Below are positions 665-30,203 of a stretch of 41,350 nucleotides of DNA, one piece after another. The translations under genes were made by a program, and so were the position numbers. The first letter of the stretch is position 1. Each line of letters starts with the position of its first letter. The stretch is from a virus. Taxonomy: Duplodnaviria > Heunggongvirae > Uroviricota > Caudoviricetes. The DNA lies in IMG/VR virus record IMGVR_UViG_3300045988_014834, positions 1 through 41,350 of that record; one strand, 5' to 3'. A model generated the notes under the pieces. It was given only the letters and a program-made list of their open reading frames with translations, was not told the DNA's origin and ran no database searches.

Positions 665-693
665 TTGCACACCCCAATATAATAGGGTACTAT
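665..693 (+). promoter_or_regulatory. Early promoter: -35 TTGCAC, 17-nt spacer, -10 TACTAT
   Basis: Sequence TTGCACACCCCAATATAATAGGGTACTATTCAC, nearly identical copies at 8523 and (reverse) 20188-20216. Confidence 0.6.
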
Positions 694-723
694 TCACTCA
701 CACCAACAATGAAGGAGTTTAAA

Positions 724-8207: not shown

Positions 8208-8306
8208 GTTTCCCCTTTCTCGATAAGTAAAGCCCCGCCTTAAAGCGGGGCGCTAGTCCTTATCATTTAAACATAGAAACGGCGTAATCTCAGTAAACCA
8301 GTTACT

Positions 8307-8460
8307 TTTTACACAAGCAATAGAGTATGGCCCTTCCGAACGCGTCAGCGTAACTACACTCAGGACTTACGTCCCGCTCCGTTACCTGCCCGCGCCGCGG
8401 TCGCTTGTTCACACTTCACAAGCTCAGGAGGAGCTTAGCACACTTTTAGTGAAAAGTCAA
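8307..8460. repeat. Conserved ~150-bp noncoding element, copy A (second copy 20382-20525)
   Basis: About 75 percent identity to copy B with compensatory changes in a hairpin (GGAC-TTAC-GTCC here, GTGCC-TAAT-GGCAC in B). Confidence 0.6.
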
Positions 8461-8522
8461 CTATTCGAATAGTTTATTCCAACATTTACAATTTAGTGGA
8501 ATAACTGGAATACATAAATAGT

Positions 8523-8551
8523 TTGCACACCCCGATATAATAGGGTACTAT
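8523..8551 (+). promoter_or_regulatory. Early promoter copy (TTGCAC N17 TACTAT) driving the methyltransferase
   Basis: TTGCACACCCCGATATAATAGGGTACTATTCAG. Confidence 0.6.
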
Positions 8552-8579
8552 TCAGTTAACTTGAACAGCAGGAGTTAAA

Positions 8580-9308
8580 ATGTTTACTTTGAAACGTGGG
8601 GATTGTCTGGAGTTGATGCATGACGTACCAGATAAGAGTGTAGACCTTATTTTATGCGATTTACCTTATGGTACGACGCAAAACAAATGGGATACGGTAA
8701 TACCTTTCGATGCCCTATGGGGCCATTACATGCGTATTTCTCGCGGTGCTATTGTGCTAACAGCAGCGCAACCTTTCACTAGCGCGTTGATTATGAGTAA
8801 TGCTAAATTGTTCAAATACTCGTGGGTTTGGGATAAGGCAAATAGCACTGGATTCCTTAACGCTAAAAAGCAACCTTTACGCCGAACAGAGGACGTGGTT
8901 GTATTTTATGGCTCACAGCCAACCTATAACCCTCAAATGGAAGTTAGAGGTAAGCCCCGTAAGAAAGGTGGGTATATTAAAAAAGACGGCTCTGACAACT
9001 ATGGGTCTTTTAAAAGTGTAGAATCTGTTAGTAATGATTACTACCCCACCAATTTGATAGAAATATCTAATGCTAATAGGTCGGAAAAGTGCCACCCCAC
9101 CCAAAAACCAGTAGCGTTGATGGAATACCTGATTAAGACGTATACAAACGAAGGGGATACAGTTCTTGATAACTGTATGGGCAGCGGGACGACCGGAGTT
9201 GCGTGTGCGAACACAAACCGGAAGTTTATAGGCATGGAGTTAGACCGTGATTACTTCCGTATAGCCAGAAGACGCATATCTGAAGCATATAAAACTAAGG
9301 CCCCTTAA
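8580..9308 (+). CDS. Orphan DNA methyltransferase (N6-adenine/N4-cytosine beta-class), 242 aa
   Basis: Catalytic-motif region DLILCDLPYG followed later by the AdoMet motif HPTQKP...VLDNCMGSGTT; no restriction enzyme partner nearby. Confidence 0.85.
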   Translation: MFTLKRGDCLELMHDVPDKSVDLILCDLPYGTTQNKWDTVIPFDALWGHYMRISRGAIVLTAAQPFTSALIMSNAKLFKYSWVWDKANSTGFLNAKKQPLRRTEDVVVFYGSQPTYNPQMEVRGKPRKKGGYIKKDGSDNYGSFKSVESVSNDYYPTNLIEISNANRSEKCHPTQKPVALMEYLIKTYTNEGDTVLDNCMGSGTTGVACANTNRKFIGMELDRDYFRIARRRISEAYKTKAP

Positions 9309-9781: not shown

Positions 9782-10857
9782 TATTCCTCTTTCAGATAAT
9801 CAGCAACACGTTTATCGAGTTCCGCCATCTGCTTAAGCGTGAGCGGATTCCAAAAACCATCTACAGATATTACGCGAAACTCTTCCGGTGATATACCGCT
9901 GTTGCGGAAAATCTTACCGCGCACCGGGCCGAGCGCCTGGTCCTGGAACCACGCTGGTTGTTGTTTCAGGAACTCGTAGTAAGTGGTGTCTGCGCTTACC
10001 TGAGTACCGCCGTCCGCACCCTTAGCCGCTCGTTTCGCACCTTTATCGAGGAAGTCGAACTCGGAACTGATTACCGGAGCTGTGCACGATCGACAGTTAG
10101 GATGGGCGGGGGGCATCGGCCCCTTACCAATTTCCCACGTCATTCCGTCTCTGGCTCTGCAAATCGTACTGGTACGACTGTCCAGCGTCGACACCCACTC
10201 GTATTTCTCGATGATGTCGTCGTTCTGGCGATACGTCTCGTTGCGGGCTTCGTTGGATACGTGGGACAGCGCGGTGCGGATTACGGTAGCGGCATTACGT
10301 TCAGAGATGTCCGCCAGCCCACCAGCGCCAACAACATTCTTAACAATCTGCCGTGTCGTTTGACCTTGTACAAAGCCCATCTTAACGCCGGTTACCAGGC
10401 GCGATACTTCTGTTTCACCCCAGCCATCCATCAGCTTAGTGAAATCGACGGGCTTGTCGCTTAACGATAAGGGTTGAAACTCGGCGGCGGCCCACACTTG
10501 TTCGGCGGTTGGCGTAACAAATTCCGCATTTACGTTGGCGGTAAGTGTCTTTACATTCCACCCGGCCTCATATGCCGCCAGTTCCTTAAGGTCTTCTGTC
10601 AGCTTTGTTTGCCAGTCGCCGGTAAGTCCGGTTAGTGCTTCTTCCAGGTCGCGTAACAGTTTATTCAGCCGTGCGGTGCTGCGACCGTCGTCGCCAAATA
10701 ACAGCACCTGCCGTTTGATTTCATCTCGCATTTCCTGAATGAGCGGTGCGAGGTCTTTCACTTCGCCTGATGCGGTGCGTTGTAGCCATATTTGGTGGCT
10801 GATTAGTGATGTAAGTAAGCTCATAGATAAACCCTGTGGCGCTAAAGTTAATAGCAT
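9781..10857 (-). CDS. Head morphogenesis protein (SPP1 gp7 / Mu F-like), 358 aa
   Basis: Follows the portal gene; conserved C-terminal Cys-containing region (ICRARDG...HPNCRSC). Confidence 0.65.
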   Translation of the reverse strand: MLLTLAPQGLSMSLLTSLISHQIWLQRTASGEVKDLAPLIQEMRDEIKRQVLLFGDDGRSTARLNKLLRDLEEALTGLTGDWQTKLTEDLKELAAYEAGWNVKTLTANVNAEFVTPTAEQVWAAAEFQPLSLSDKPVDFTKLMDGWGETEVSRLVTGVKMGFVQGQTTRQIVKNVVGAGGLADISERNAATVIRTALSHVSNEARNETYRQNDDIIEKYEWVSTLDSRTSTICRARDGMTWEIGKGPMPPAHPNCRSCTAPVISSEFDFLDKGAKRAAKGADGGTQVSADTTYYEFLKQQPAWFQDQALGPVRGKIFRNSGISPEEFRVISVDGFWNPLTLKQMAELDKRVADYLKEE

Positions 10858-10893
10858 ACTATAAGAAAGCCCCTTTCGGGGCTATATGTGAAC

Positions 10894-15710: not shown

Positions 15711-15739
15711 AATATAGTAGGGTCGAGGGTAATAGTCAA
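15711..15739 (-). promoter_or_regulatory. Near-consensus sigma70 promoter: TTGACT, 17 nt, TATATT
   Basis: Minus strand reads TTGACTattaccctcgaccctacTATATT. Confidence 0.6.
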
Positions 15740-18276: not shown

Positions 18277-18307
18277 ATTCTGTCTCTCCTCTCGTTCGTG
18301 TAAATGA

Positions 18308-18336
18308 ATAGTAGCCTATTCTATCTTAGCGTGCAA
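18308..18336 (-). promoter_or_regulatory. Promoter TTGCAC, 17 nt, TACTAT (early-type, divergent spacer)
   Basis: Minus strand TTGCACgctaagatagaataggcTACTATTCA. Confidence 0.5.
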
Positions 18337-20153: not shown

Positions 20154-20187
20154 TTCTGAATTCCTTATGTCTCGTTCCGATAAGTGA

Positions 20188-20216
20188 ATAGTATACTATT
20201 ATGTTGGGGTGTGCAA
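20188..20216 (-). promoter_or_regulatory. Early promoter copy (TTGCAC N17 TACTAT) for the leftward early operon
   Basis: Minus strand TTGCACACCCCAACATAATAGTATACTATTCAC. Confidence 0.6.
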
Positions 20217-20381
20217 GAGATTAGTTACGTTGCCGTTGTGATTCTTTCGTTTCTTAAAAGAGTACGCAACGCAGTGGGTGGGCGTTAGCCCACCCCAGCG
20301 GAGTGAAGTACTCTCTACATTGCTTACGGCAACTATAGAAACTTTTAATTATCAGTGACTTGGGTATTTAGGCGGGATTAA

Positions 20382-20525
20382 CAATAGACTTTGGCCCTTC
20401 CGAAAGCGCCAGCGGAACTACACTCAAGTGCCTAATGGCACGCGTTGCGTTCCCTGCCGCTCCGCGGTCGCTTGCGATATCTCACAAGCTCAGTGAAGCT
20501 TAGCATATTTTTAAGTAAAAGTCAA
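20382..20525. repeat. Conserved ~150-bp noncoding element, copy B
   Basis: Aligns with 8307-8460 including covarying hairpins. Confidence 0.6.
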
Positions 20526-20632: not shown

Positions 20633-20815
20633 ATGCAGCATTACATGACACAGAATGAAGTAGCTGAACGTATCGGGGTGACCCGTCAGACAATTAATAA
20701 CTGGTTGCGCAGTGGTAAATTCCCGGATTGTTGTATTAAGGTTATGGGCCGCCGTTTACCAGGAACATTTGATCGTAATAAAGTTGAAGCGTGGATTAAG
20801 GAGAACGTGAAATGA
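20633..20815 (+). CDS. Small HTH DNA-binding protein (AlpA/Xis-like), 60 aa
   Basis: GGAG then ATG; HTH-like segment MTQNEVAERIGVTRQTINNWLRSGKFP. Confidence 0.5.
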   Translation: MQHYMTQNEVAERIGVTRQTINNWLRSGKFPDCCIKVMGRRLPGTFDRNKVEAWIKENVK

Positions 20816-23622: not shown

Positions 23623-23650
23623 AAAAAAAGAAAGGGGCGTTAAGCCCCTT
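23622..23650 (-). terminator. Hairpin terminator (GGGGC-GTTAA-GCCCC) with T9 on the minus strand
   Basis: Read from sequence; stop codon of the HTH gene lies in the loop. Confidence 0.55.
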
Positions 23651-23855
23651 CACCAAACGCCAGCCACTTGGCGTCTACTTGCAGCACTTCCGCCAGTTTG
23701 AACAGCGTCGCCGGGCGGACGTCCTGAGTTACTCCAAGCGCCAGCTGGTTAATTGCACCCTGGGAAACGCCGGCCAGAACAGCCAGACGGCGCTGGGAGA
23801 TGCCGAGTTCTTTACGGCGTTGTTCTACACGAATGCCTAGTTCAGATGGTTGCAT
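23640..23855 (-). CDS. Cro/CI-type (XRE family) HTH regulator, 71 aa, divergent within the replication arm
   Basis: ELGISQRRLAVLAGVSQGAINQLALG is a classic XRE-type HTH; AAGGAG upstream. Confidence 0.6.
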   Translation of the reverse strand: MQPSELGIRVEQRRKELGISQRRLAVLAGVSQGAINQLALGVTQDVRPATLFKLAEVLQVDAKWLAFGEGA

Positions 23856-23919
23856 GTCAATTACTCCTTAGTCAGTTGATATGTGAATAGTACCATATTA
23901 ATTATTTTAGAAAAGCCCA

Positions 23920-23948
23920 TTGACAAGTGAATAGCTCGCTATTATAGT
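23920..23948 (+). promoter_or_regulatory. Middle promoter TTGACA, 17 nt, TATAGT with embedded palindrome AATAG-N4-CTATT (23930-23943)
   Basis: ttgacaagtgAATAGctcgCTATTatagtt. Confidence 0.55.
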
Positions 23949-23979
23949 TAGCACATACCAAACGAGAGGAGCGAAACAA

Positions 23980-24450
23980 ATGTTAGACCAATTTCTGAAA
24001 TTACTTGAGCGTTTCGTAGTTGCCCACGAACTGATTGCTGCGAACAGTGTGAAACAAGTAGTCGTTGCTGAAACCGCAACAATCGAGACCACTGTTGCGA
24101 AAGAAGCAACAAAAGAAATCCCAGTCGAAGGTGAAGACCTCGTCGACACTAAACCGGCAGAAGAAGAGAAGCCAAAACGCAAGCCGCGTAAAGCTAAAGT
24201 AGAGGAGCCGACGCCAGAGCCGGAAGAAGAGAAGGAAGAAGTCGATTACCAGTCTCTGCGCGACCAGATTCAGGCTATCGACGATGCGATTAATGAAGGT
24301 CCGAGCGATGCCGCGTGCGATGATTCCGATGAACTGCTGGAAGAGTTCACCGGTAAGAAAATGAAGATTGCCGCGATTAAAGACGAAGACCTGGCCGAGT
24401 ACCTGGAACGCCTGACGGCAATCAAGAACAAGTATTTCGAAGAAGAATAA
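23980..24450 (+). CDS. Highly acidic protein, 156 aa
   Basis: Long Glu/Asp-rich stretches, short basic patch KPKRKPRKAK, C-terminus YFEEE. Confidence 0.45.
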   Translation: MLDQFLKLLERFVVAHELIAANSVKQVVVAETATIETTVAKEATKEIPVEGEDLVDTKPAEEEKPKRKPRKAKVEEPTPEPEEEKEEVDYQSLRDQIQAIDDAINEGPSDAACDDSDELLEEFTGKKMKIAAIKDEDLAEYLERLTAIKNKYFEEE

Positions 24451-24493
24451 CTATCTCGCGGCCTTCGGGCCGCTTTAACTGAGGGTCGGAAAT

Positions 24494-24766
24494 ATGATTT
24501 ATCAACTCTACCGCGCCGTAGACAGGCGAGATAACACCGAGGCGTTGTGGCTATTGCGTGCGCCGTCAGGGGCGCACCAGATGGAAGAGATGGCCTACTT
24601 AGGCAAAGTACCACGGCCTAAAGATATAGGCCGTCATGTGTCGCAGATTAAGCGCACGACTTTCGCCAAGCCAGACTTTTATGTCTTCGAGTCGATGTAT
24701 GGCTGGGCTATGCATTGCGATCATAAGACCAGGCATTTAATTGACCAGTGGGAGAACATGGTATGA
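24494..24766 (+). CDS. Hypothetical protein, 90 aa
   Basis: Track ORF with GAGGG upstream. Confidence 0.4.
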   Translation: MIYQLYRAVDRRDNTEALWLLRAPSGAHQMEEMAYLGKVPRPKDIGRHVSQIKRTTFAKPDFYVFESMYGWAMHCDHKTRHLIDQWENMV

Positions 24767-25110
24767 CGGATAAATGGTGGCTTAATTTGCGCAGCGGTGA
24801 CAAGGTTTACACCGTCGGTGACCGCAGAAAGAACAGTGGCGCAGCTACTGTTCTACAAAATGGCAAAAAGTACATACACATTGCGCATGAAGCTCGGGCG
24901 CTCCGCGTGAATAAATCATCCGGCAGGCTTGAGGATTACCCAAAAACATTTATATACAAAAGTGAAAAGCATCACATGGCCGCTGTTGACGCAAGACGTC
25001 AGTTCGCAGGAATGTTGCGACAGTTAAGTGACTTACATCGTGATGATTCTTTCATTCCTACAGAAGAACAGTTACAAGCATTAAACTTGTATTTGGAGAG
25101 TTTACGATGA
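24748..25110 (+). CDS. Hypothetical protein, about 115-120 aa
   Basis: Coupled ORF. Confidence 0.4.
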   Translation: MGEHGMTDKWWLNLRSGDKVYTVGDRRKNSGAATVLQNGKKYIHIAHEARALRVNKSSGRLEDYPKTFIYKSEKHHMAAVDARRQFAGMLRQLSDLHRDDSFIPTEEQLQALNLYLESLR

Positions 25111-26348
25111 TTCTAAAAGAACGCGGCGGCAATAATGATGTGCACGCCTTACTGTCACCGTCTGGGGCTAAAAAGTGGCTTACATGCAGTGCATCACTGG
25201 CCTGTGAGAAAGATATTCCTAACACGTCGGGTAAAGCCGCTGTATTAGGCACAGCCATGCACACCATAGCTGAGGTACATCTCAACGCCTATATTCGCGG
25301 AACTGCGTTGCCGTTAGAGCGTGAAGTTGGTGCTTACGTGCTGGATGAGGGTAAAGGCCAGATTAAGGCGCTAATCAGCCCGATGAAAGGTGCGGTACTG
25401 ATTACGGCGGACATGATTGAGCAGGTGCGCAAGTACACCGACTACTGTAAGGCAATTATCGATGTAGCGACTTACGCCAAGCTCGAGATGCGCGTCAATC
25501 TTACGGAGGTATTGCATCCGGGTTACGAAGGCGTTGAGACGTTCGGAACGGCTGACCTTGTTGCCGTTCAGGAACTAGCAAACACCGACGAGCACATGCT
25601 CATTATCGGTGACCTGAAAACAGGACGGCATCGTGTCGAAGCGAAAGAAAACAAGCAGCTTATGCTTTACGCTCTCGGTGTTTATCGCCGACTCAAGAGG
25701 CGCTATAACATCACCGTGGTTCGTCTGGTAATATTCCAGCCGTACGCTGGTGGTGCGTCGGAGTGGGGCATCTCGGTTGAAGGTCTGGAACTGTTCGCCA
25801 AGTTTGCACAAAAACGCGCGCTGTTAGCCCTTGATGCGTATTCCCGTGGCAAGAAGAACCTGAAAGCGTCTGACTTCAGGCCATCGGTAGATGGTTGTCA
25901 GTGGTGCCGGTTCTCCGAACAATGCGCCGCACGTACAAAGACGGTTAACGCAGTACTGGCGGAAGAACTGGAAGACGATTTTGCGCTTGAGCTTACGCCT
26001 GAGCAACTCGTAGCTGAGTATGAGAAGTTGCCGTTGTTGCGACAGCACATCGACAAGGTCGAGAAAGCTATGGCCGCCGCGTTGCATTCCGGTAAGAAAG
26101 TGCCGGGGTACAAGCTGGTAGAAGGTCACCATGGTAATCGTGCGTGGAAAGATGCGGAGAAAGTAGCAGAACTCTACGGCGACAAGCTGACTAAAGAAGT
26201 GCTCATGTCACCTACCGAAGCTGTTAAAGTCATACCGGAAGAAGAACTGAAAGACTTCATTACCCGTAAGCCCGGCGCACCGTGTGTTGCAACGGCAGAC
26301 GACAAACGCCCTGAGTGGAATCAGGTAACAGAGGAGGATTTAGAATGA
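25107..26348 (+). CDS. PD-(D/E)XK nuclease, Cas4-like (DUF2800-type phage exonuclease), 413 aa
   Basis: Core GTADLVAV...IGDLKTGR and C-terminal Cys cluster CQWCRFSEQC. Confidence 0.6.
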   Translation: MILKERGGNNDVHALLSPSGAKKWLTCSASLACEKDIPNTSGKAAVLGTAMHTIAEVHLNAYIRGTALPLEREVGAYVLDEGKGQIKALISPMKGAVLITADMIEQVRKYTDYCKAIIDVATYAKLEMRVNLTEVLHPGYEGVETFGTADLVAVQELANTDEHMLIIGDLKTGRHRVEAKENKQLMLYALGVYRRLKRRYNITVVRLVIFQPYAGGASEWGISVEGLELFAKFAQKRALLALDAYSRGKKNLKASDFRPSVDGCQWCRFSEQCAARTKTVNAVLAEELEDDFALELTPEQLVAEYEKLPLLRQHIDKVEKAMAAALHSGKKVPGYKLVEGHHGNRAWKDAEKVAELYGDKLTKEVLMSPTEAVKVIPEEELKDFITRKPGAPCVATADDKRPEWNQVTEEDLE

Positions 26349-26518
26349 TGGTTTATATACTCACGCGGTATCACCGCCGATACTCTATTCAAGAACTTGA
26401 TATTGTTTCTGTTCACGCCAAACGCGCCGACGCCGACAAAATTGCAGAAGAGAAGAACTCAAAGCATGATGCGGTGCAACCTTATATCTATAAGGTAGTT
26501 CCGAAGAGACTTAAATAA
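26345..26518 (+). CDS. Small basic protein, 57 aa
   Basis: ATGA overlap with the nuclease stop behind GAGGAGG. Confidence 0.35.
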   Translation: MMVYILTRYHRRYSIQELDIVSVHAKRADADKIAEEKNSKHDAVQPYIYKVVPKRLK

Positions 26519-26522
26519 AGTG

Positions 26523-26552
26523 TTGACAACCTGAATAGTTAGCTATTATAGT
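26523..26552 (+). promoter_or_regulatory. Middle promoter TTGACA ... TATAGT with palindrome AATAG-N4-CTATT (26534-26547)
   Basis: ttgacaacctgAATAGttagCTATTatagtt. Confidence 0.5.
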
Positions 26553-26607
26553 TCTAATCACTGGCCGGGCAGTTCCCGGAGTAAACTTTGAAAAGCGAGA
26601 AATCAAG

Positions 26608-27234
26608 ATGGGACTGAAATTAAATCTGCGTAAAGTAAACACTGCATGGGTTAACGTATTCGAACGCGAAAAAGACCGTGAAAACGATGATGGCTCAATC
26701 ACTAAAGGCCAGTACAGCGCGACTATTATCCTGCCGTCTGACCATGCTCAAATCGACGCGCTTTACGATACCGTTTACGCTGTAGTTGAAGAAGCATTAG
26801 GCGCAGCCGCTGCCGAGAAATGGATGAAGTCCAACTACGGCGAAGGGAAGCACATGGATAAATGCGCGATTAAAGACATTGCAGAGCGCGACAATCCGTT
26901 TGAGGACTTCCCGGAAGGCTTCTACTTCAAAGCGAAGGCACAGAAACAGCCGCTGATTGTAACCTCTAAAAAAGGTGAGACTCAGGTAGAGCAGGACTTC
27001 AACGTAGACGGCGAACAGATTGAAGGCGAACAGGTTTACAGCGGCTGCGTAGCTAACGTAAGTGTTGAAATCTGGTTCAGCCAGAAATACAAAGTACTCG
27101 GCGTTAACCTGCTGGCTATTAAATACGTCGGCGAAGGTAAAGCGTTCGGTGGTTCTAAAGTCGCTGCAAGCGTCAATGACCTGGAAGACGACGAAGAAGA
27201 TGAAGCACCGCGCCGTGAACGTCGTCGCCGCTAA
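26608..27234 (+). CDS. ssDNA-binding protein candidate (DUF2815-like), 208 aa
   Basis: Acidic C-terminal tail DLEDDEEDEAP; lies between the Cas4-like nuclease and the polymerase. Confidence 0.45.
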   Translation: MGLKLNLRKVNTAWVNVFEREKDRENDDGSITKGQYSATIILPSDHAQIDALYDTVYAVVEEALGAAAAEKWMKSNYGEGKHMDKCAIKDIAERDNPFEDFPEGFYFKAKAQKQPLIVTSKKGETQVEQDFNVDGEQIEGEQVYSGCVANVSVEIWFSQKYKVLGVNLLAIKYVGEGKAFGGSKVAASVNDLEDDEEDEAPRRERRRR

Positions 27235-29922: not shown

Positions 29923-30203
29923 CTAAAGAGGGCCGCGTACAGAAATACGCAAAGGAGCGATTCGAGGCCCTCGGGGGCCTCGTTCGAAAGCTGTCTTATG
30001 AGGGACGCTCCGGCGCCCCCGACCTCCTGGTAATTCTCCCCGGCGGCATTGTCTGGTTTGTCGAGGTTAAGAAAGACGAAAATACGAAGCCAGACCCGCA
30101 CCAGTTACGTGAACATGAGAGATTTCGAAAACGTGGTGCAAATGTTTTTGTCGTCGGTTCGTTTAAACAGGTTGACGACCTAATAGCGAACTATTATAGT
30201 TAG
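29919..30203 (+). CDS. VRR-NUC domain nuclease, 94 aa
   Basis: Core PDLLVILPGGIVWFVEVKK (D...E.K PD-(D/E)XK pattern). Confidence 0.55.
   Translation: MTKEGRVQKYAKERFEALGGLVRKLSYEGRSGAPDLLVILPGGIVWFVEVKKDENTKPDPHQLREHERFRKRGANVFVVGSFKQVDDLIANYYS
30172..30200 (+). promoter_or_regulatory. Middle promoter TTGACG, 17 nt, TATAGT with palindrome AATAG-N4-CTATT (30182-30195)
   Basis: ttgacgacctAATAGcgaaCTATTatagtt, inside the 3' end of the VRR-NUC gene. Confidence 0.5.

What the first reader, a model, noticed from the sequence alone, without database searches (positions are those of the whole stretch)
23856..23960. Divergent control region: Cro/CI-type HTH gene facing a middle promoter that carries a palindromic operator
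Three rightward promoters (23920, 26523, 30172) share TTGAC(A/G) ... CTATTATAGTT and each contains the inverted repeat AATAG-N4-CTATT in the spacer, overlapping the -10 region. That is the geometry of a dimeric repressor operator. The only Cro/CI-type HTH gene (23640-23855, minus strand) is transcribed divergently from the first of these promoters. I infer a circuit in which this regulator times the replication genes, an unusual switch-like unit for a phage with no integrase.
Basis: partly seen in the sequence, partly recalled or inferred. Interest (0 to 1): 0.55.

Follow-up and report, generated by a model that had tools for sequence, protein, structure and literature searches.

The report
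Cro-like repressor with dispersed promoter operators
A virulent E. coli phage of the genus Kagunavirus carries the same 14-base palindrome inside at least eight of its host-type promoters, next to a small gene resembling phage 434 Cro, which most likely shuts these promoters down during infection; this is a familiar kind of circuit in a place where it has not been described.

Summary
TTGACA/G (23920, 26523, 30172), 17/18/17-bp spacers, TATAGT and AATAG-N4-CTATT (23930, 26534, 30182) are exactly where stated. They are the three best sigma-70 matches in 14-33 kb.

The window holds 7 exact copies of the palindrome (about 0.03 expected). It also sits over the -10 of a second promoter class (TTGCAC-N17-TACTAT) at 681, 8539, 18307 and 20187. 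A 9/10 copy lies at the HTH gene's own promoter (23886).

Across 50 Kagunavirus and Jerseyvirus genomes or loci, the half-sites are as conserved as the -10, while N4 and the linker vary. More distant relatives carry different palindromes at the orthologous promoters (TTAGC-N2-GCTAA; TATAGYGCTGTA). Their Cro-like recognition helices also differ.

The 71-aa protein is a 434-Cro-like HTH by Pfam, PDB sequence search and AF2/Foldseek. A second HTH protein (HTH_17, 20633-20815) is a weaker candidate binder. Its recognition helix varies while the palindrome does not, and it was not found in a lineage that keeps the palindrome.

Verdict: a genome-wide Cro/operator turn-down circuit, not a replication-specific timer and not a bistable switch. 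Binding is inferred, not shown. It is a new member of a known kind, of moderate interest.

The parts
23640..23855 (-). Gene for the 71-aa 434-Cro-like HTH protein, the candidate operator-binding repressor
   Evidence: Pfam HTH_3 E 1.2e-12. The best PDB sequence match is 434 Cro, also 71 aa, E 4.9e-7. The AF2 model has pLDDT 84 and five helices, and its top Foldseek hit is 2cro. The gene lies at the same syntenic place in all Guernseyvirinae-like lineages examined.
23631..23651 (-). Intrinsic terminator right after the Cro-like gene, overlapping its stop codon, which makes the gene a monocistronic unit
   Evidence: The scan finds an 8-pair stem with 5 G-C pairs followed by a run of 9 T. Schulenburg annotates a terminator at the same place.
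23886..23899 (.). Imperfect palindrome AATAGTACCATATT (9 of 10 half-site positions) over the predicted -10 of the Cro-like gene's own promoter. On the minus strand this reads TGgTACTAT, an extended -10, at 23887-23895.
   Evidence: It is near-invariant in the 35 Kagunavirus loci (one locus differs at one base in the central four). In Jerseyvirus the same promoter reads TTGCAC-N17-TACTAT with a more degenerate left half.
23920..23948 (+). Promoter A1: TTGACA, 17-bp spacer, TATAGT, with operator AATAG-CTCG-CTATT at 23930-23943. It drives 23980-26518 (unknown ORFs, a ProQ-C-like protein, a Cas4-like nuclease).
   Evidence: Taken at a fixed offset from the HTH start, all 35 Kagunavirus loci have an exact palindrome while the linker and N4 vary.
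26523..26552 (+). Promoter A2: TTGACA, 18-bp spacer, TATAGT, with operator at 26534-26547. It drives the SSB (Enc34 type), the DNA polymerase and the VRR-NUC gene.
   Evidence: With an anchor that does not depend on the palindrome, 42 of 46 loci have an exact palindrome and 4 have one mismatch.
30172..30200 (+). Promoter A3: TTGACG, 17-bp spacer, TATAGT, with operator at 30182-30195. It lies inside the 3' end of the VRR-NUC ORF and drives the HNH/AP2 gene and the SNF2 helicase.
   Evidence: 41 of 44 loci have an exact palindrome.
665..694 (+). Promoter B1: TTGCAC, 17-bp spacer, TACTAT, with operator at 681-694 over the -10 (centre -12.5). It drives the superinfection-immunity gene at 709 and the phosphoesterase.
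8523..8552 (+). Promoter B2: TTGCAC, 17-bp spacer, TACTAT, with operator at 8539-8552. It drives the N6 DNA methylase gene 8580-9308.
18307..18336 (-). Promoter B4: TTGCAC, 17-bp spacer, TACTAT, with operator at 18307-18320. Here the site is the fully symmetric GAATAG-N4-CTATTC. It drives small leftward genes.
20187..20216 (-). Promoter B3: TTGCAC, 17-bp spacer, TACTAT, with operator at 20187-20200. It drives the small leftward genes 20153-19277.
   Evidence: All 35 occurrences found with a -35-based anchor carry the exact palindrome.
20633..20815 (+). Gene for the 60-aa HTH_17 (excisionase/MerR-like) protein, the rival candidate binder
   Evidence: Pfam HTH_17 E 4.5e-8 with a partial HTH_3 match. 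It is restricted to Kagunavirus and Jerseyvirus. Its recognition helix varies while the palindrome does not. It was not found in L138, which keeps the palindrome.

Best explanation
The window is an almost complete genome of a virulent Kagunavirus (Guernseyvirinae). AATAG-N4-CTATT is the operator of a phage-encoded dimeric DNA-binding protein, most probably the 71-aa 434-Cro-like protein encoded at 23640-23855.

The operator is built into host sigma-70 promoters in two registers. In class A (TTGACA-N17/18-TATAGT: the three replication/recombination operons) it fills the spacer, centred at -18.5. In class B (TTGCAC-N17-TACTAT: the immunity/phosphoesterase operon, the methylase and the small leftward genes) it covers the -10, centred at -12.5. 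In either register a bound dimer would exclude RNA polymerase.

The regulator is made from its own monocistronic unit: an extended -10 promoter, the gene, then a terminator. That promoter carries only a 9/10 copy of the site. Proposed course of events: after DNA entry all these strong promoters fire, the Cro-like protein accumulates and turns them down, and it limits its own synthesis only at higher concentration. This is lambda/434 Cro logic without a CI partner.

Shown: the sites, their positions relative to the promoter consensus, their conservation pattern, the lineage-specific replacement of the palindrome, and the family and fold of the protein.
Inferred: that the predicted promoters are used, that this protein is the binder, that it binds as a dimer, and that the effect is repression.
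For: (1) Enrichment: 7 exact copies against about 0.03 expected, and all 7 lie in promoter-like regions (six intergenic; the A3 copy sits in the 3' end of the VRR-NUC ORF). It is the top 5-N4-5 palindrome in three genomes.
(2) Footprint-like conservation: in 53 distinct A1 and A3 sequences from 50 genomes or loci, the half-site columns score 1.4-2.0 bits, like the -10. N4 scores 0.1-1.0 bit and the -35/operator linker 0.4-1.0 bit, and the linker also varies in length. Extraction that did not depend on the palindrome gave 42/46 exact copies at A2 and 41/44 at A3. Most of the rare mismatches are at dyad-related position 2/2'.
(3) The element is not needed for the promoter itself. The orthologous SSB-operon promoter keeps its -35, -10 and leader hairpin in distant lineages but carries a different dyad in the same place. 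Lineage X2 has TTAGC-N2-GCTAA, 3 exact copies per 20 kb, all in promoters, plus a 1-mismatch copy beside cro. Lineage X1 has TATAGYGCTGTA, 2 copies per locus. The element types are mutually exclusive between lineages.
(4) Each lineage has a Cro-like gene at the same position, divergent from the A1-type promoter, with its own helix 3: Kagunavirus SQGAINQ, Jerseyvirus SQSLITH, X2 SQGYISH, X1 SQGCFGH.
(5) Within the AATAG group, the base flanking the half-site tracks the Cro type. Jerseyvirus always has T (TAATAG...CTATTA). Kagunavirus has G wherever the -10 does not dictate the base.
(6) The protein is 434-Cro-like, 71 aa. Homologs at 50% identity are genuine 434-type Cro proteins with 14-bp ACAA-N6-TTGT operators upstream, so a 14-bp dyad fits the family.
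(7) An imperfect copy lies at the regulator's own promoter.
Against: No binding data exist and none were found in the literature. Three different helix-3 sequences (Kagunavirus, Jerseyvirus, L138) would all have to read AATAG. The STP-1 group has a helix close to the Jerseyvirus one, yet it has no exact and no 1-mismatch AATAG palindrome in its genome, only vestiges such as ATTAG-TTTA-GTATT at A1. The covariation rests on few independent lineages and is confounded with phylogeny. All promoters and transcription starts are predictions. Kagunavirus and Jerseyvirus also share a second HTH protein whose distribution matches that of the exact palindrome.
Confidence: 0.6

Rival explanations
1. The palindrome is an operator, but the binder is the 60-aa HTH_17 (excisionase/MerR-like) protein encoded at 20633-20815. 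The Cro-like protein has other targets.
For: HTH_17 is found only in Kagunavirus and Jerseyvirus, the two genera with the exact palindrome (443 phage records). It is 82% identical between the genera, against 51% for the Cro-like protein, which parallels the unchanged core palindrome. STP-1 lacks both HTH_17 and the palindrome but keeps a Cro-like gene.
Against: Within Kagunavirus its recognition helix exists in four variants (TRQTINNWLR, TRQTINNWIK, TRRTLNNWLK, S[PT]MTLNRWLR) with no change in the palindrome. The Kagunavirus G-flank does not follow the HTH_17 type. L138 has 5 copies of AATAG-N4-[CG]TATT in 20.5 kb and a Cro-like gene, but an HTH_17 profile finds nothing at E<=1. X1 and X2 have analogous dyads and also no HTH_17. 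From general knowledge, small HTH_17/excisionase-type proteins usually bind direct or irregular repeats rather than 14-bp dyads.
Confidence: 0.08
2. The palindrome is bound by some other factor: a host protein or an unrecognised phage protein.
For: No direct link between any protein and the site has been shown. About half of the small phage ORFs have no recognisable domain.
Against: The concerted replacement of the dyad between phage lineages that infect similar enterobacteria argues for a phage-encoded, co-evolving partner. I know of no E. coli or Salmonella regulator with this consensus (my own knowledge, not tested). The Cro-like gene is the only recognisable regulator at a conserved position in all lineages.
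Confidence: 0.12
3. There is no trans-acting factor. The shared sequence is a promoter-intrinsic element, or simply the trace of a duplicated promoter cassette. The literature labels these sites 'phage-specific promoters' found by PHIRE.
For: PHIRE-based papers report the consensus tgAATAGTa-ccTATTat-T in 7 copies in fBC-Eco01 (PMC9825357) and 7 such promoters in Golestan (PMC7203180). Part of the right half-site overlaps -10 bases.
Against: The element sits in two different registers relative to the -35 and -10 (centres -18.5 and -12.5) and in both orientations. The AATAG half has no sigma-70 role in either class. Orthologous promoters work with a different dyad or with a decayed one (STP-1, X1, X2). 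The N4 and linker drift while the half-sites do not. No phage RNA polymerase is annotated in three relatives.
Confidence: 0.08
4. The bound protein has a dual role. At the three divergent sites (681, 8539, 20187) the same operator also lies in the spacer of an opposite-strand promoter with no good -35 (CTATTATATT / TATATC / TATGTT followed by GGGG). The protein represses class B and activates or unmasks this 'class C', redirecting transcription towards the tail, head and helicase-primase genes.
For: Only the three sites in divergent intergenic regions keep a -10-like box and GGGGTGTGCAA on the opposite strand. The unidirectional B4 site does not.
Against: GGGGTGTGCAA is largely explained by the class B -35 (TTGCAC) read on the other strand. 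The Jerseyvirus site upstream of the tail-chaperone gene has no -10 on that strand (CTATTAACGG). The -35 regions are poor and not conserved. A spacer-centred site is not a usual activator position.
Confidence: 0.12

Closest known systems
Phage 434 Cro and its 14-bp operators (also lambda and P22 Cro)
   Same: Both are single-domain, 71-aa, five-helix HTH proteins. 434 Cro is the best sequence and fold match in the PDB. Both systems use 14-bp dyad sites with conserved outer bases and a variable centre, embedded in core promoters next to the gene. The expected role is turn-down of early promoters during lytic growth.
   Different: There is no CI partner, no PRM-type divergent repressor gene and no tripartite OR, so no bistable switch. 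The half-site is AATAG (5+4+5), not ACAA (4+6+4). The sites are single and spread over at least 8 promoters around the genome, in two registers. The gene has its own promoter and terminator instead of being the first gene of the rightward operon. Identity to 434 Cro is only 38-41%.
Dispersed repressor regulons of phages: P1 C1 operators, mycobacteriophage L5 gp71 operator/stoperator sites (from my own knowledge)
   Same: One small phage repressor has many copies of a short site distributed over the whole genome, controlling several operons.
   Different: Those are immunity repressors of temperate phages with asymmetric sites. L5 stoperators act within transcription units. Here the sites are dyads inside promoters of a phage with no lysogeny genes.
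Controller (C) proteins of restriction-modification systems (C.AhdI, C.BclI, C.Esp1396I)
   Same: They are small XRE-type HTH dimers. They appear among the fold matches. They bind dyads that overlap promoters and so time expression after DNA enters a new cell.
   Different: C proteins act on one or two adjacent sites at their own operon, with activation followed by repression. There is no sequence similarity between the operators. Here there are at least 8 dispersed single sites.
'Phage-specific promoters' reported by PHIRE for Kagunavirus genomes (fBC-Eco01, PMC9825357; Golestan, PMC7203180)
   Same: It is the same repeated motif. The published consensus is tgAATAGTa-ccTATTat-T, in seven copies.
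   Different: The fBC-Eco01 paper assigns the motif to a phage-encoded RNA polymerase (the Golestan paper calls them phage-specific promoters) and does not note the dyad. The sites have host-type -35 and -10 boxes, and no phage RNA polymerase is annotated in three relatives.

Membership tests
XRE / Cro-CI type HTH (Pfam HTH_3), 434 Cro subgroup | Match to the HTH_3 profile above the curated threshold | tested here: met
   48.1 bits against a cut-off of 23, E 1.2e-12. HTH_31 and HTH_19 are also above their cut-offs.
XRE / Cro-CI type HTH (Pfam HTH_3), 434 Cro subgroup | Five-helix globular fold superposable on 434 Cro or the 434 repressor N-terminal domain | tested here: met
   AF2 single-sequence model, pLDDT 84, helices 5-17, 21-28, 32-39, 48-57 and 62-66. 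Top Foldseek hits are 2cro (TM 0.72/0.78, 40% identity) and 1pra.
XRE / Cro-CI type HTH (Pfam HTH_3), 434 Cro subgroup | Cro rather than CI: a single domain of about 70 aa with no C-terminal oligomerisation or peptidase domain | tested here: met
   The ORF is 71 aa, the same length as 434 Cro.
XRE / Cro-CI type HTH (Pfam HTH_3), 434 Cro subgroup | Binds a dyad-symmetric operator as a dimer | not testable with these tools
   Only indirect evidence: a 14-bp dyad next to the gene, and lineage-specific dyads paired with lineage-specific recognition helices.
Lambdoid lysis-lysogeny switch (CI/Cro/OR) | A divergent CI-type repressor gene and an integrase that give two stable states | tested here: not met
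   No CI-length XRE protein and no integrase are annotated in fFiEco03, Jersey or Schulenburg. The gene divergent from the Cro-like gene is an unknown 156-aa ORF with no Pfam match.
Lambdoid lysis-lysogeny switch (CI/Cro/OR) | Tandem operators of graded affinity between two divergent promoters | tested here: inconclusive
   One perfect site (23930) and one 9/10 site (23886) lie 44 bp apart between the two divergent promoters. Their affinities are unknown.
Host sigma-70 promoters | -35 and -10 hexamers with a 16-18 bp spacer | tested here: met
   A1-A3 match 10-11 of 12 positions. Class B is TTGCAC-N17-TACTAT, and the last two bases of N4 are constrained to TA across genomes.
Host sigma-70 promoters | Mapped transcription start sites | not testable with these tools
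   No transcript data were found for Guernseyvirinae.
Promoters of a phage-encoded RNA polymerase (the label in the fBC-Eco01 paper) | The phage encodes its own RNA polymerase | tested here: not met
   No RNA polymerase gene is annotated in three complete relatives.
MerR-type spacer-binding activation | An over-long 19-20 bp spacer and a MerR dimer with a coiled-coil | tested here: not met
   Class A and B spacers are 17-18 bp. The HTH_17 protein is only 60 aa and matches only the N-terminal part of MerR_1, below its cut-off.

The most novel reading that the evidence does not exclude
One dyad, placed between back-to-back promoters, acts as a bidirectional early-to-late switch in a virulent phage. 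Occupancy by the Cro-like dimer silences the class B early promoter on one strand and frees or activates a promoter with no good -35 on the other strand, which leads into the tail, head and helicase-primase operons. In addition, the lineage-specific operator/helix pairs (AATAG-N4-CTATT, TTAGC-N2-GCTAA, TATAGYGCTGTA) form a natural set of orthogonal Cro-operator pairs.
Probability: 0.12. Interest if true: 0.7.

Novelty: new member of a known kind. Interest (0 to 1): 0.4.

Why it matters
Kagunavirus and Jerseyvirus phages are among the most often isolated therapeutic candidates against E. coli and Salmonella, and they are being used as small chassis for phage engineering (the BASEL preprint). 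Their gene regulation is essentially undescribed. The repeated motif is currently mislabelled as a promoter for a phage RNA polymerase, and the 'repressor' gene is sometimes read as a sign of a temperate lifestyle.

A defined Cro/operator regulon would explain how a phage with only host-type promoters orders its expression. It would mark which promoters can be changed safely. It would also supply several apparently orthogonal repressor/operator pairs from related lineages. None of this would overturn current understanding.

Tried and rejected
(1) Klebsiella phage klb_E (HTH 45% identical) turned out to be a lambdoid-type Cro/CI pair with 434-like operators. It is not a relative of the phage and was dropped.

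(2) A repeat search in STP-1 for a replacement palindrome found nothing enriched. That lineage stays unexplained.

(3) Rfam, at both the gathering and the E-value threshold, gave no family for the window or for the repeated leader element.

(4) Full-text searches for the motif string returned only unrelated papers. Searches on Guernseyvirinae, Kagunavirus and Jerseyvirus regulation returned genome announcements with no operator analysis.

(5) I considered class C opposite-strand promoters as general late promoters and marked the idea down, because the Jerseyvirus tail-operon site lacks the -10.

(6) I considered a MerR-like spacer activation mechanism. The spacers are 17-18 bp, so it was rejected.

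(7) My first logo run lost the A2 set through a window-length error. The A2 numbers come instead.

(8) The large protein-database searches were not used. Pfam, PDB and locus-derived homologs were enough.

Full report
**What the window is.** Megablast of 20-32 kb finds 455 phage records. The best are E. coli phages of the genus Kagunavirus (Guernseyvirinae) at 86-91% identity, followed by Salmonella Jerseyvirus. Annotated relatives (fFiEco03, Jersey, Schulenburg) are about 43-kb siphoviruses with no integrase, no CI-length repressor and no RNA polymerase gene. The window is therefore almost a whole genome of a virulent phage.

**Checking the observation.** The sequence reads ttgacaagtgAATAGCTCGCTATTATAGTt.
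- AATAGNNNNCTATTATAGT matches exactly at 23930, 26534 and 30182.
- The promoter scan ranks TTGACA-17-TATAGT (23920-23948), TTGACA-18-TATAGT (26523-26552) and TTGACG-17-TATAGT (30172-30200) as the three best sigma-70-like sites between 14 and 33 kb.
- The palindrome spans -25 to -12 and shares only its last T with the -10.
- The bare dyad AATAG-N4-CTATT occurs 7 times exactly, against a mean of 0.03 in Markov simulations. With up to one mismatch there are 11 matches against 1.13 expected.
- An unbiased count of all 5-N4-5 palindromes puts AATAG first in the window (7), fFiEco03 (6) and Jersey (4).
- The ORF at 23640-23855 (-) is an HTH_3 protein. It is followed at once by a strong terminator.

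Printing every site on both strands shows a second promoter class, TTGCAC-N17-TACTAT. Here the same dyad covers the -10 (centre -12.5), 25-35 nt upstream of a ribosome-binding site and an ATG. The sites are:
- 681 (+), in front of a superinfection-immunity gene and a phosphoesterase;
- 8539 (+), in front of an N6 DNA methylase;
- 18307 (-) and 20187 (-), in front of small leftward genes.

A 9/10 copy (AATAGTACCATATT, 23886) covers the predicted -10 of the HTH gene itself. The G-to-T change creates a TGn extended -10 (TGgTACTAT), and there is no recognisable -35.

The dyad thus marks at least eight promoters around the genome, not only the replication operons. Other good promoter-like sites lack it: TTGACT-17-TATATT at 15739-15711 (-) and two copies of TTGACT-17-TAAGCT.

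**Conservation.** I fetched 80 IMG/VR loci around HTH homologs and several complete genomes.
- At a fixed offset from the HTH start, all 35 Kagunavirus loci have an exact dyad at A1. Meanwhile the -35/dyad linker varies in sequence and length (AGTG, CGTG, TCATG, ACGTG, ACCTG and others) and N4 varies (CTCG, TTCG, TTCA, TTAG, CTAG, TTTG).
- The 10 Jerseyvirus loci have AATAG-AGTA-CGATT.
- With anchors that do not include the dyad, 42 of 46 loci are exact at A2 and 41 of 44 at A3. Most of the few mismatches fall at position 2 of a half-site.
- In 53 distinct A1 and A3 sequences, the half-site columns carry 1.4-2.0 bits, the same as the -10 hexamer. N4 carries 0.1-1.0 bit and the linker 0.4-1.0 bit.
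- In class B the last two N4 bases are fixed as TA. This is expected if TACTAT is the -10, while the first two are free.

This is the pattern of a protein-binding site superimposed on promoters, not of a copied cassette.

**The protein.** The closest solved sequence is phage 434 Cro, also 71 aa (E 4.9e-7), followed by the 434 and P22 c2 repressor N-terminal domains. A single-sequence AF2 model (pLDDT 84) has five helices, and 2cro is its best Foldseek hit. IMG/VR homologs at 50% identity are true 434-type Cro proteins (helix KQQSIQ) with ACAA-N6-TTGT operators upstream. The family norm is therefore a 14-bp dyad with a variable centre, in promoters next to the gene. That is the geometry seen here.

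**Which protein binds?** There is a second HTH gene. 20633-20815 encodes a 60-aa HTH_17 (excisionase/MerR-like) protein that also partly matches HTH_3. At first it looked like a serious rival:
- it occurs only in Kagunavirus and Jerseyvirus (443 records);
- it is 82% identical between the two genera, against 51% for the Cro-like protein;
- STP-1, an unclassified member of the subfamily, lacks both HTH_17 and the dyad yet keeps a Cro-like gene.

Three results weigh against it.
- Within Kagunavirus its recognition helix has four variants, one of them radical (S[PT]MTLNRW), with no change in the dyad. The Cro-like helix is constant in 37 of 38 loci.
- The base flanking the half-site follows genus and Cro type, not HTH_17 type. 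Jerseyvirus sites are always TAATAG...CTATTA. Kagunavirus has G on the side where the -10 does not dictate the base, and the unidirectional site at 18307 is GAATAG-N4-CTATTC. This holds even in Kagunavirus loci whose HTH_17 helix matches the Jerseyvirus helix through its conserved core (TRRTLNNWL).
- Loci anchored on the SSB gene sample more distant lineages (SSB 45-51% identical), described next.

**More distant lineages.** All keep a Cro-like gene divergent from an A1-type promoter. An HTH_17 profile finds nothing in them at E<=1, while it finds the positive controls at 1e-42.
- L138 (helix SQARISH) still has 5 copies of AATAG-N4-[CG]TATT in promoters.
- X2 (L134, L139; SQGYISH) has TTAGC-N2-GCTAA three times per 20 kb. 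All three are in the spacer/-10 of promoters, including the orthologous SSB promoter. A 1-mismatch copy lies beside cro.
- X1 (L133, L135-L137; SQGCFGH) has TATAGYGCTGTA twice per locus.
- The element types are mutually exclusive between lineages.
- All share a core TAG-N4-[CG]TA, and all helices begin with (S/T)Q.

Several promoters in a genome changing their dyad in concert, together with the neighbouring regulator, is the best computational evidence available for a cognate pair. It still rests on few lineages and is not corrected for phylogeny.

**Mechanism.** A dimer centred at -18.5 or -12.5 occupies the face that RNA polymerase needs, so repression is the expected effect. The regulator's own promoter has only a weakened site. 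This suggests it is shut off last. There is no CI partner, so this is one-way turn-down, like the lytic role of lambda or 434 Cro, and not a bistable switch.

**An open variant.** At the three divergent intergenic sites, the opposite strand keeps a -10-like box followed by GGGG. This could be a promoter with no good -35 that leads towards the tail, head and helicase-primase genes. However, the GGGGTGTGCAA block is mostly the class B -35 read backwards, and the Jerseyvirus tail-operon site lacks the -10. I give this variant low probability.

**Prior knowledge.** The motif has been reported by PHIRE as seven 'phage promoters' with the consensus tgAATAGTa-ccTATTat-T and assigned to a phage RNA polymerase (PMC9825357; see also PMC7203180). 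GenBank records call the gene Cro, DicA-like or 'transcriptional repressor'. I found no paper that notes the dyad, links it to the HTH protein or reports transcript data. The finding is a new member of a known kind.

**Side finding.** Two long intergenic regions share a structured element of about 130 nt on the minus strand (8306-8431 and 20365-20497). Each copy lies directly downstream of a dyad-free TTGACT-17-TAAGCT promoter. Copy 1 is followed by a hairpin with a T run and then by the spanin/head operon.
- RNAalifold finds 26 pairs, 4 of them with compensatory changes. An internal hairpin changes sequence but stays paired (GGGAC/GTCC, GTGCC/GGCAC, CACGTC/GACGTG).
- A covariance model finds it in Schulenburg (twice), SP-101 and, more weakly, Jersey.
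- Rfam has nothing for it.
- It resembles a leader/terminator control unit for late genes and may deserve its own study.

Noticed in passing
window 8306-8431 (-) and 20365-20497 (-); promoters at 8460-8432 (-) and 20525-20497 (-); hairpin with T run at about 8255-8228 (-): A structured RNA element of about 130 nt is present in two copies (about 78% identical). Each copy lies just downstream of a sigma-70-like TTGACT-N17-TAAGCT promoter that lacks the dyad. Copy 1 is followed by a terminator-like hairpin and then by the spanin/scaffold/capsid operon. RNAalifold gives 26 pairs, 4 with compensatory changes, and an internal hairpin covaries between variants. A covariance model finds it in Schulenburg (twice), SP-101, fFiEco03 and, weakly, Jersey (L002 7302-7418). 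There is no Rfam family. It could be a cis-acting leader, for example for antitermination or attenuation of late genes.
   Followed up: partly
window about 26565-26579 (+), 13 nt downstream of the A2 -10: A 5-bp hairpin at the 5' end of the predicted SSB-operon transcript is kept across distant lineages through compensatory changes: CCGGG/CCCGG, CTCGG/CCGAG, CCCAG/CTGGG and CCCGG/CCGGG. It may be an mRNA-stability element or a translational-operator element (sequences).
   Followed up: no
window 676-681 (-), 8534-8539 (-), 20200-20205 (+): At the three dyad sites in divergent intergenic regions, the strand opposite the class B promoter carries a -10-like box (TATATT, TATATC, TATGTT) followed by GGGGTGTGCAA, with no good -35. 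The unidirectional site at 18307 lacks both. These may be bidirectional promoters. The feature is not conserved at the Jerseyvirus tail-operon site.
   Followed up: partly
window 26608-27234 (+): The SSB (Enc34/DUF2815 type) is 99% identical in protein sequence to that of Salmonella phages Jersey and SP-101. The neighbouring helicase-primase and the Cro-like protein are only about 58% and 51% identical. This points to recent exchange of this gene between genera.
   Followed up: no
window 10850-10863: A one-mismatch copy of the dyad (AATAGCATACTATA) sits between the portal and head-morphogenesis genes, right after a terminator-like hairpin on the minus strand. No -35 is visible. Its function is unknown.
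   Followed up: no
window 15711-15739 (-) and 8452-8465; L004 39122 and 4236: The dyad-free TTGACT promoters are preceded by a lone AATAG half-site that abuts the -35 (AATAGTTGACT), and this is conserved in SP-101. It may be a half-operator or only A/T-rich upstream DNA.
   Followed up: no
L086/L087 (Salmonella phage STP-1), L141, L147: In this Guernseyvirinae lineage the Cro-like gene is the first gene of the helicase-primase operon. HTH_17 is absent, and the A1-type promoters carry ATTAG-yTTA-GTAT instead of the dyad. What the regulator binds there is unexplained.
   Followed up: partly
window, upstream of many start codons (e.g. 23961-23971, 18283-18293): A shared leader/ribosome-binding block, AACGAGAGGAG, precedes the first gene of several operons in Kagunavirus and Jerseyvirus.
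   Followed up: no
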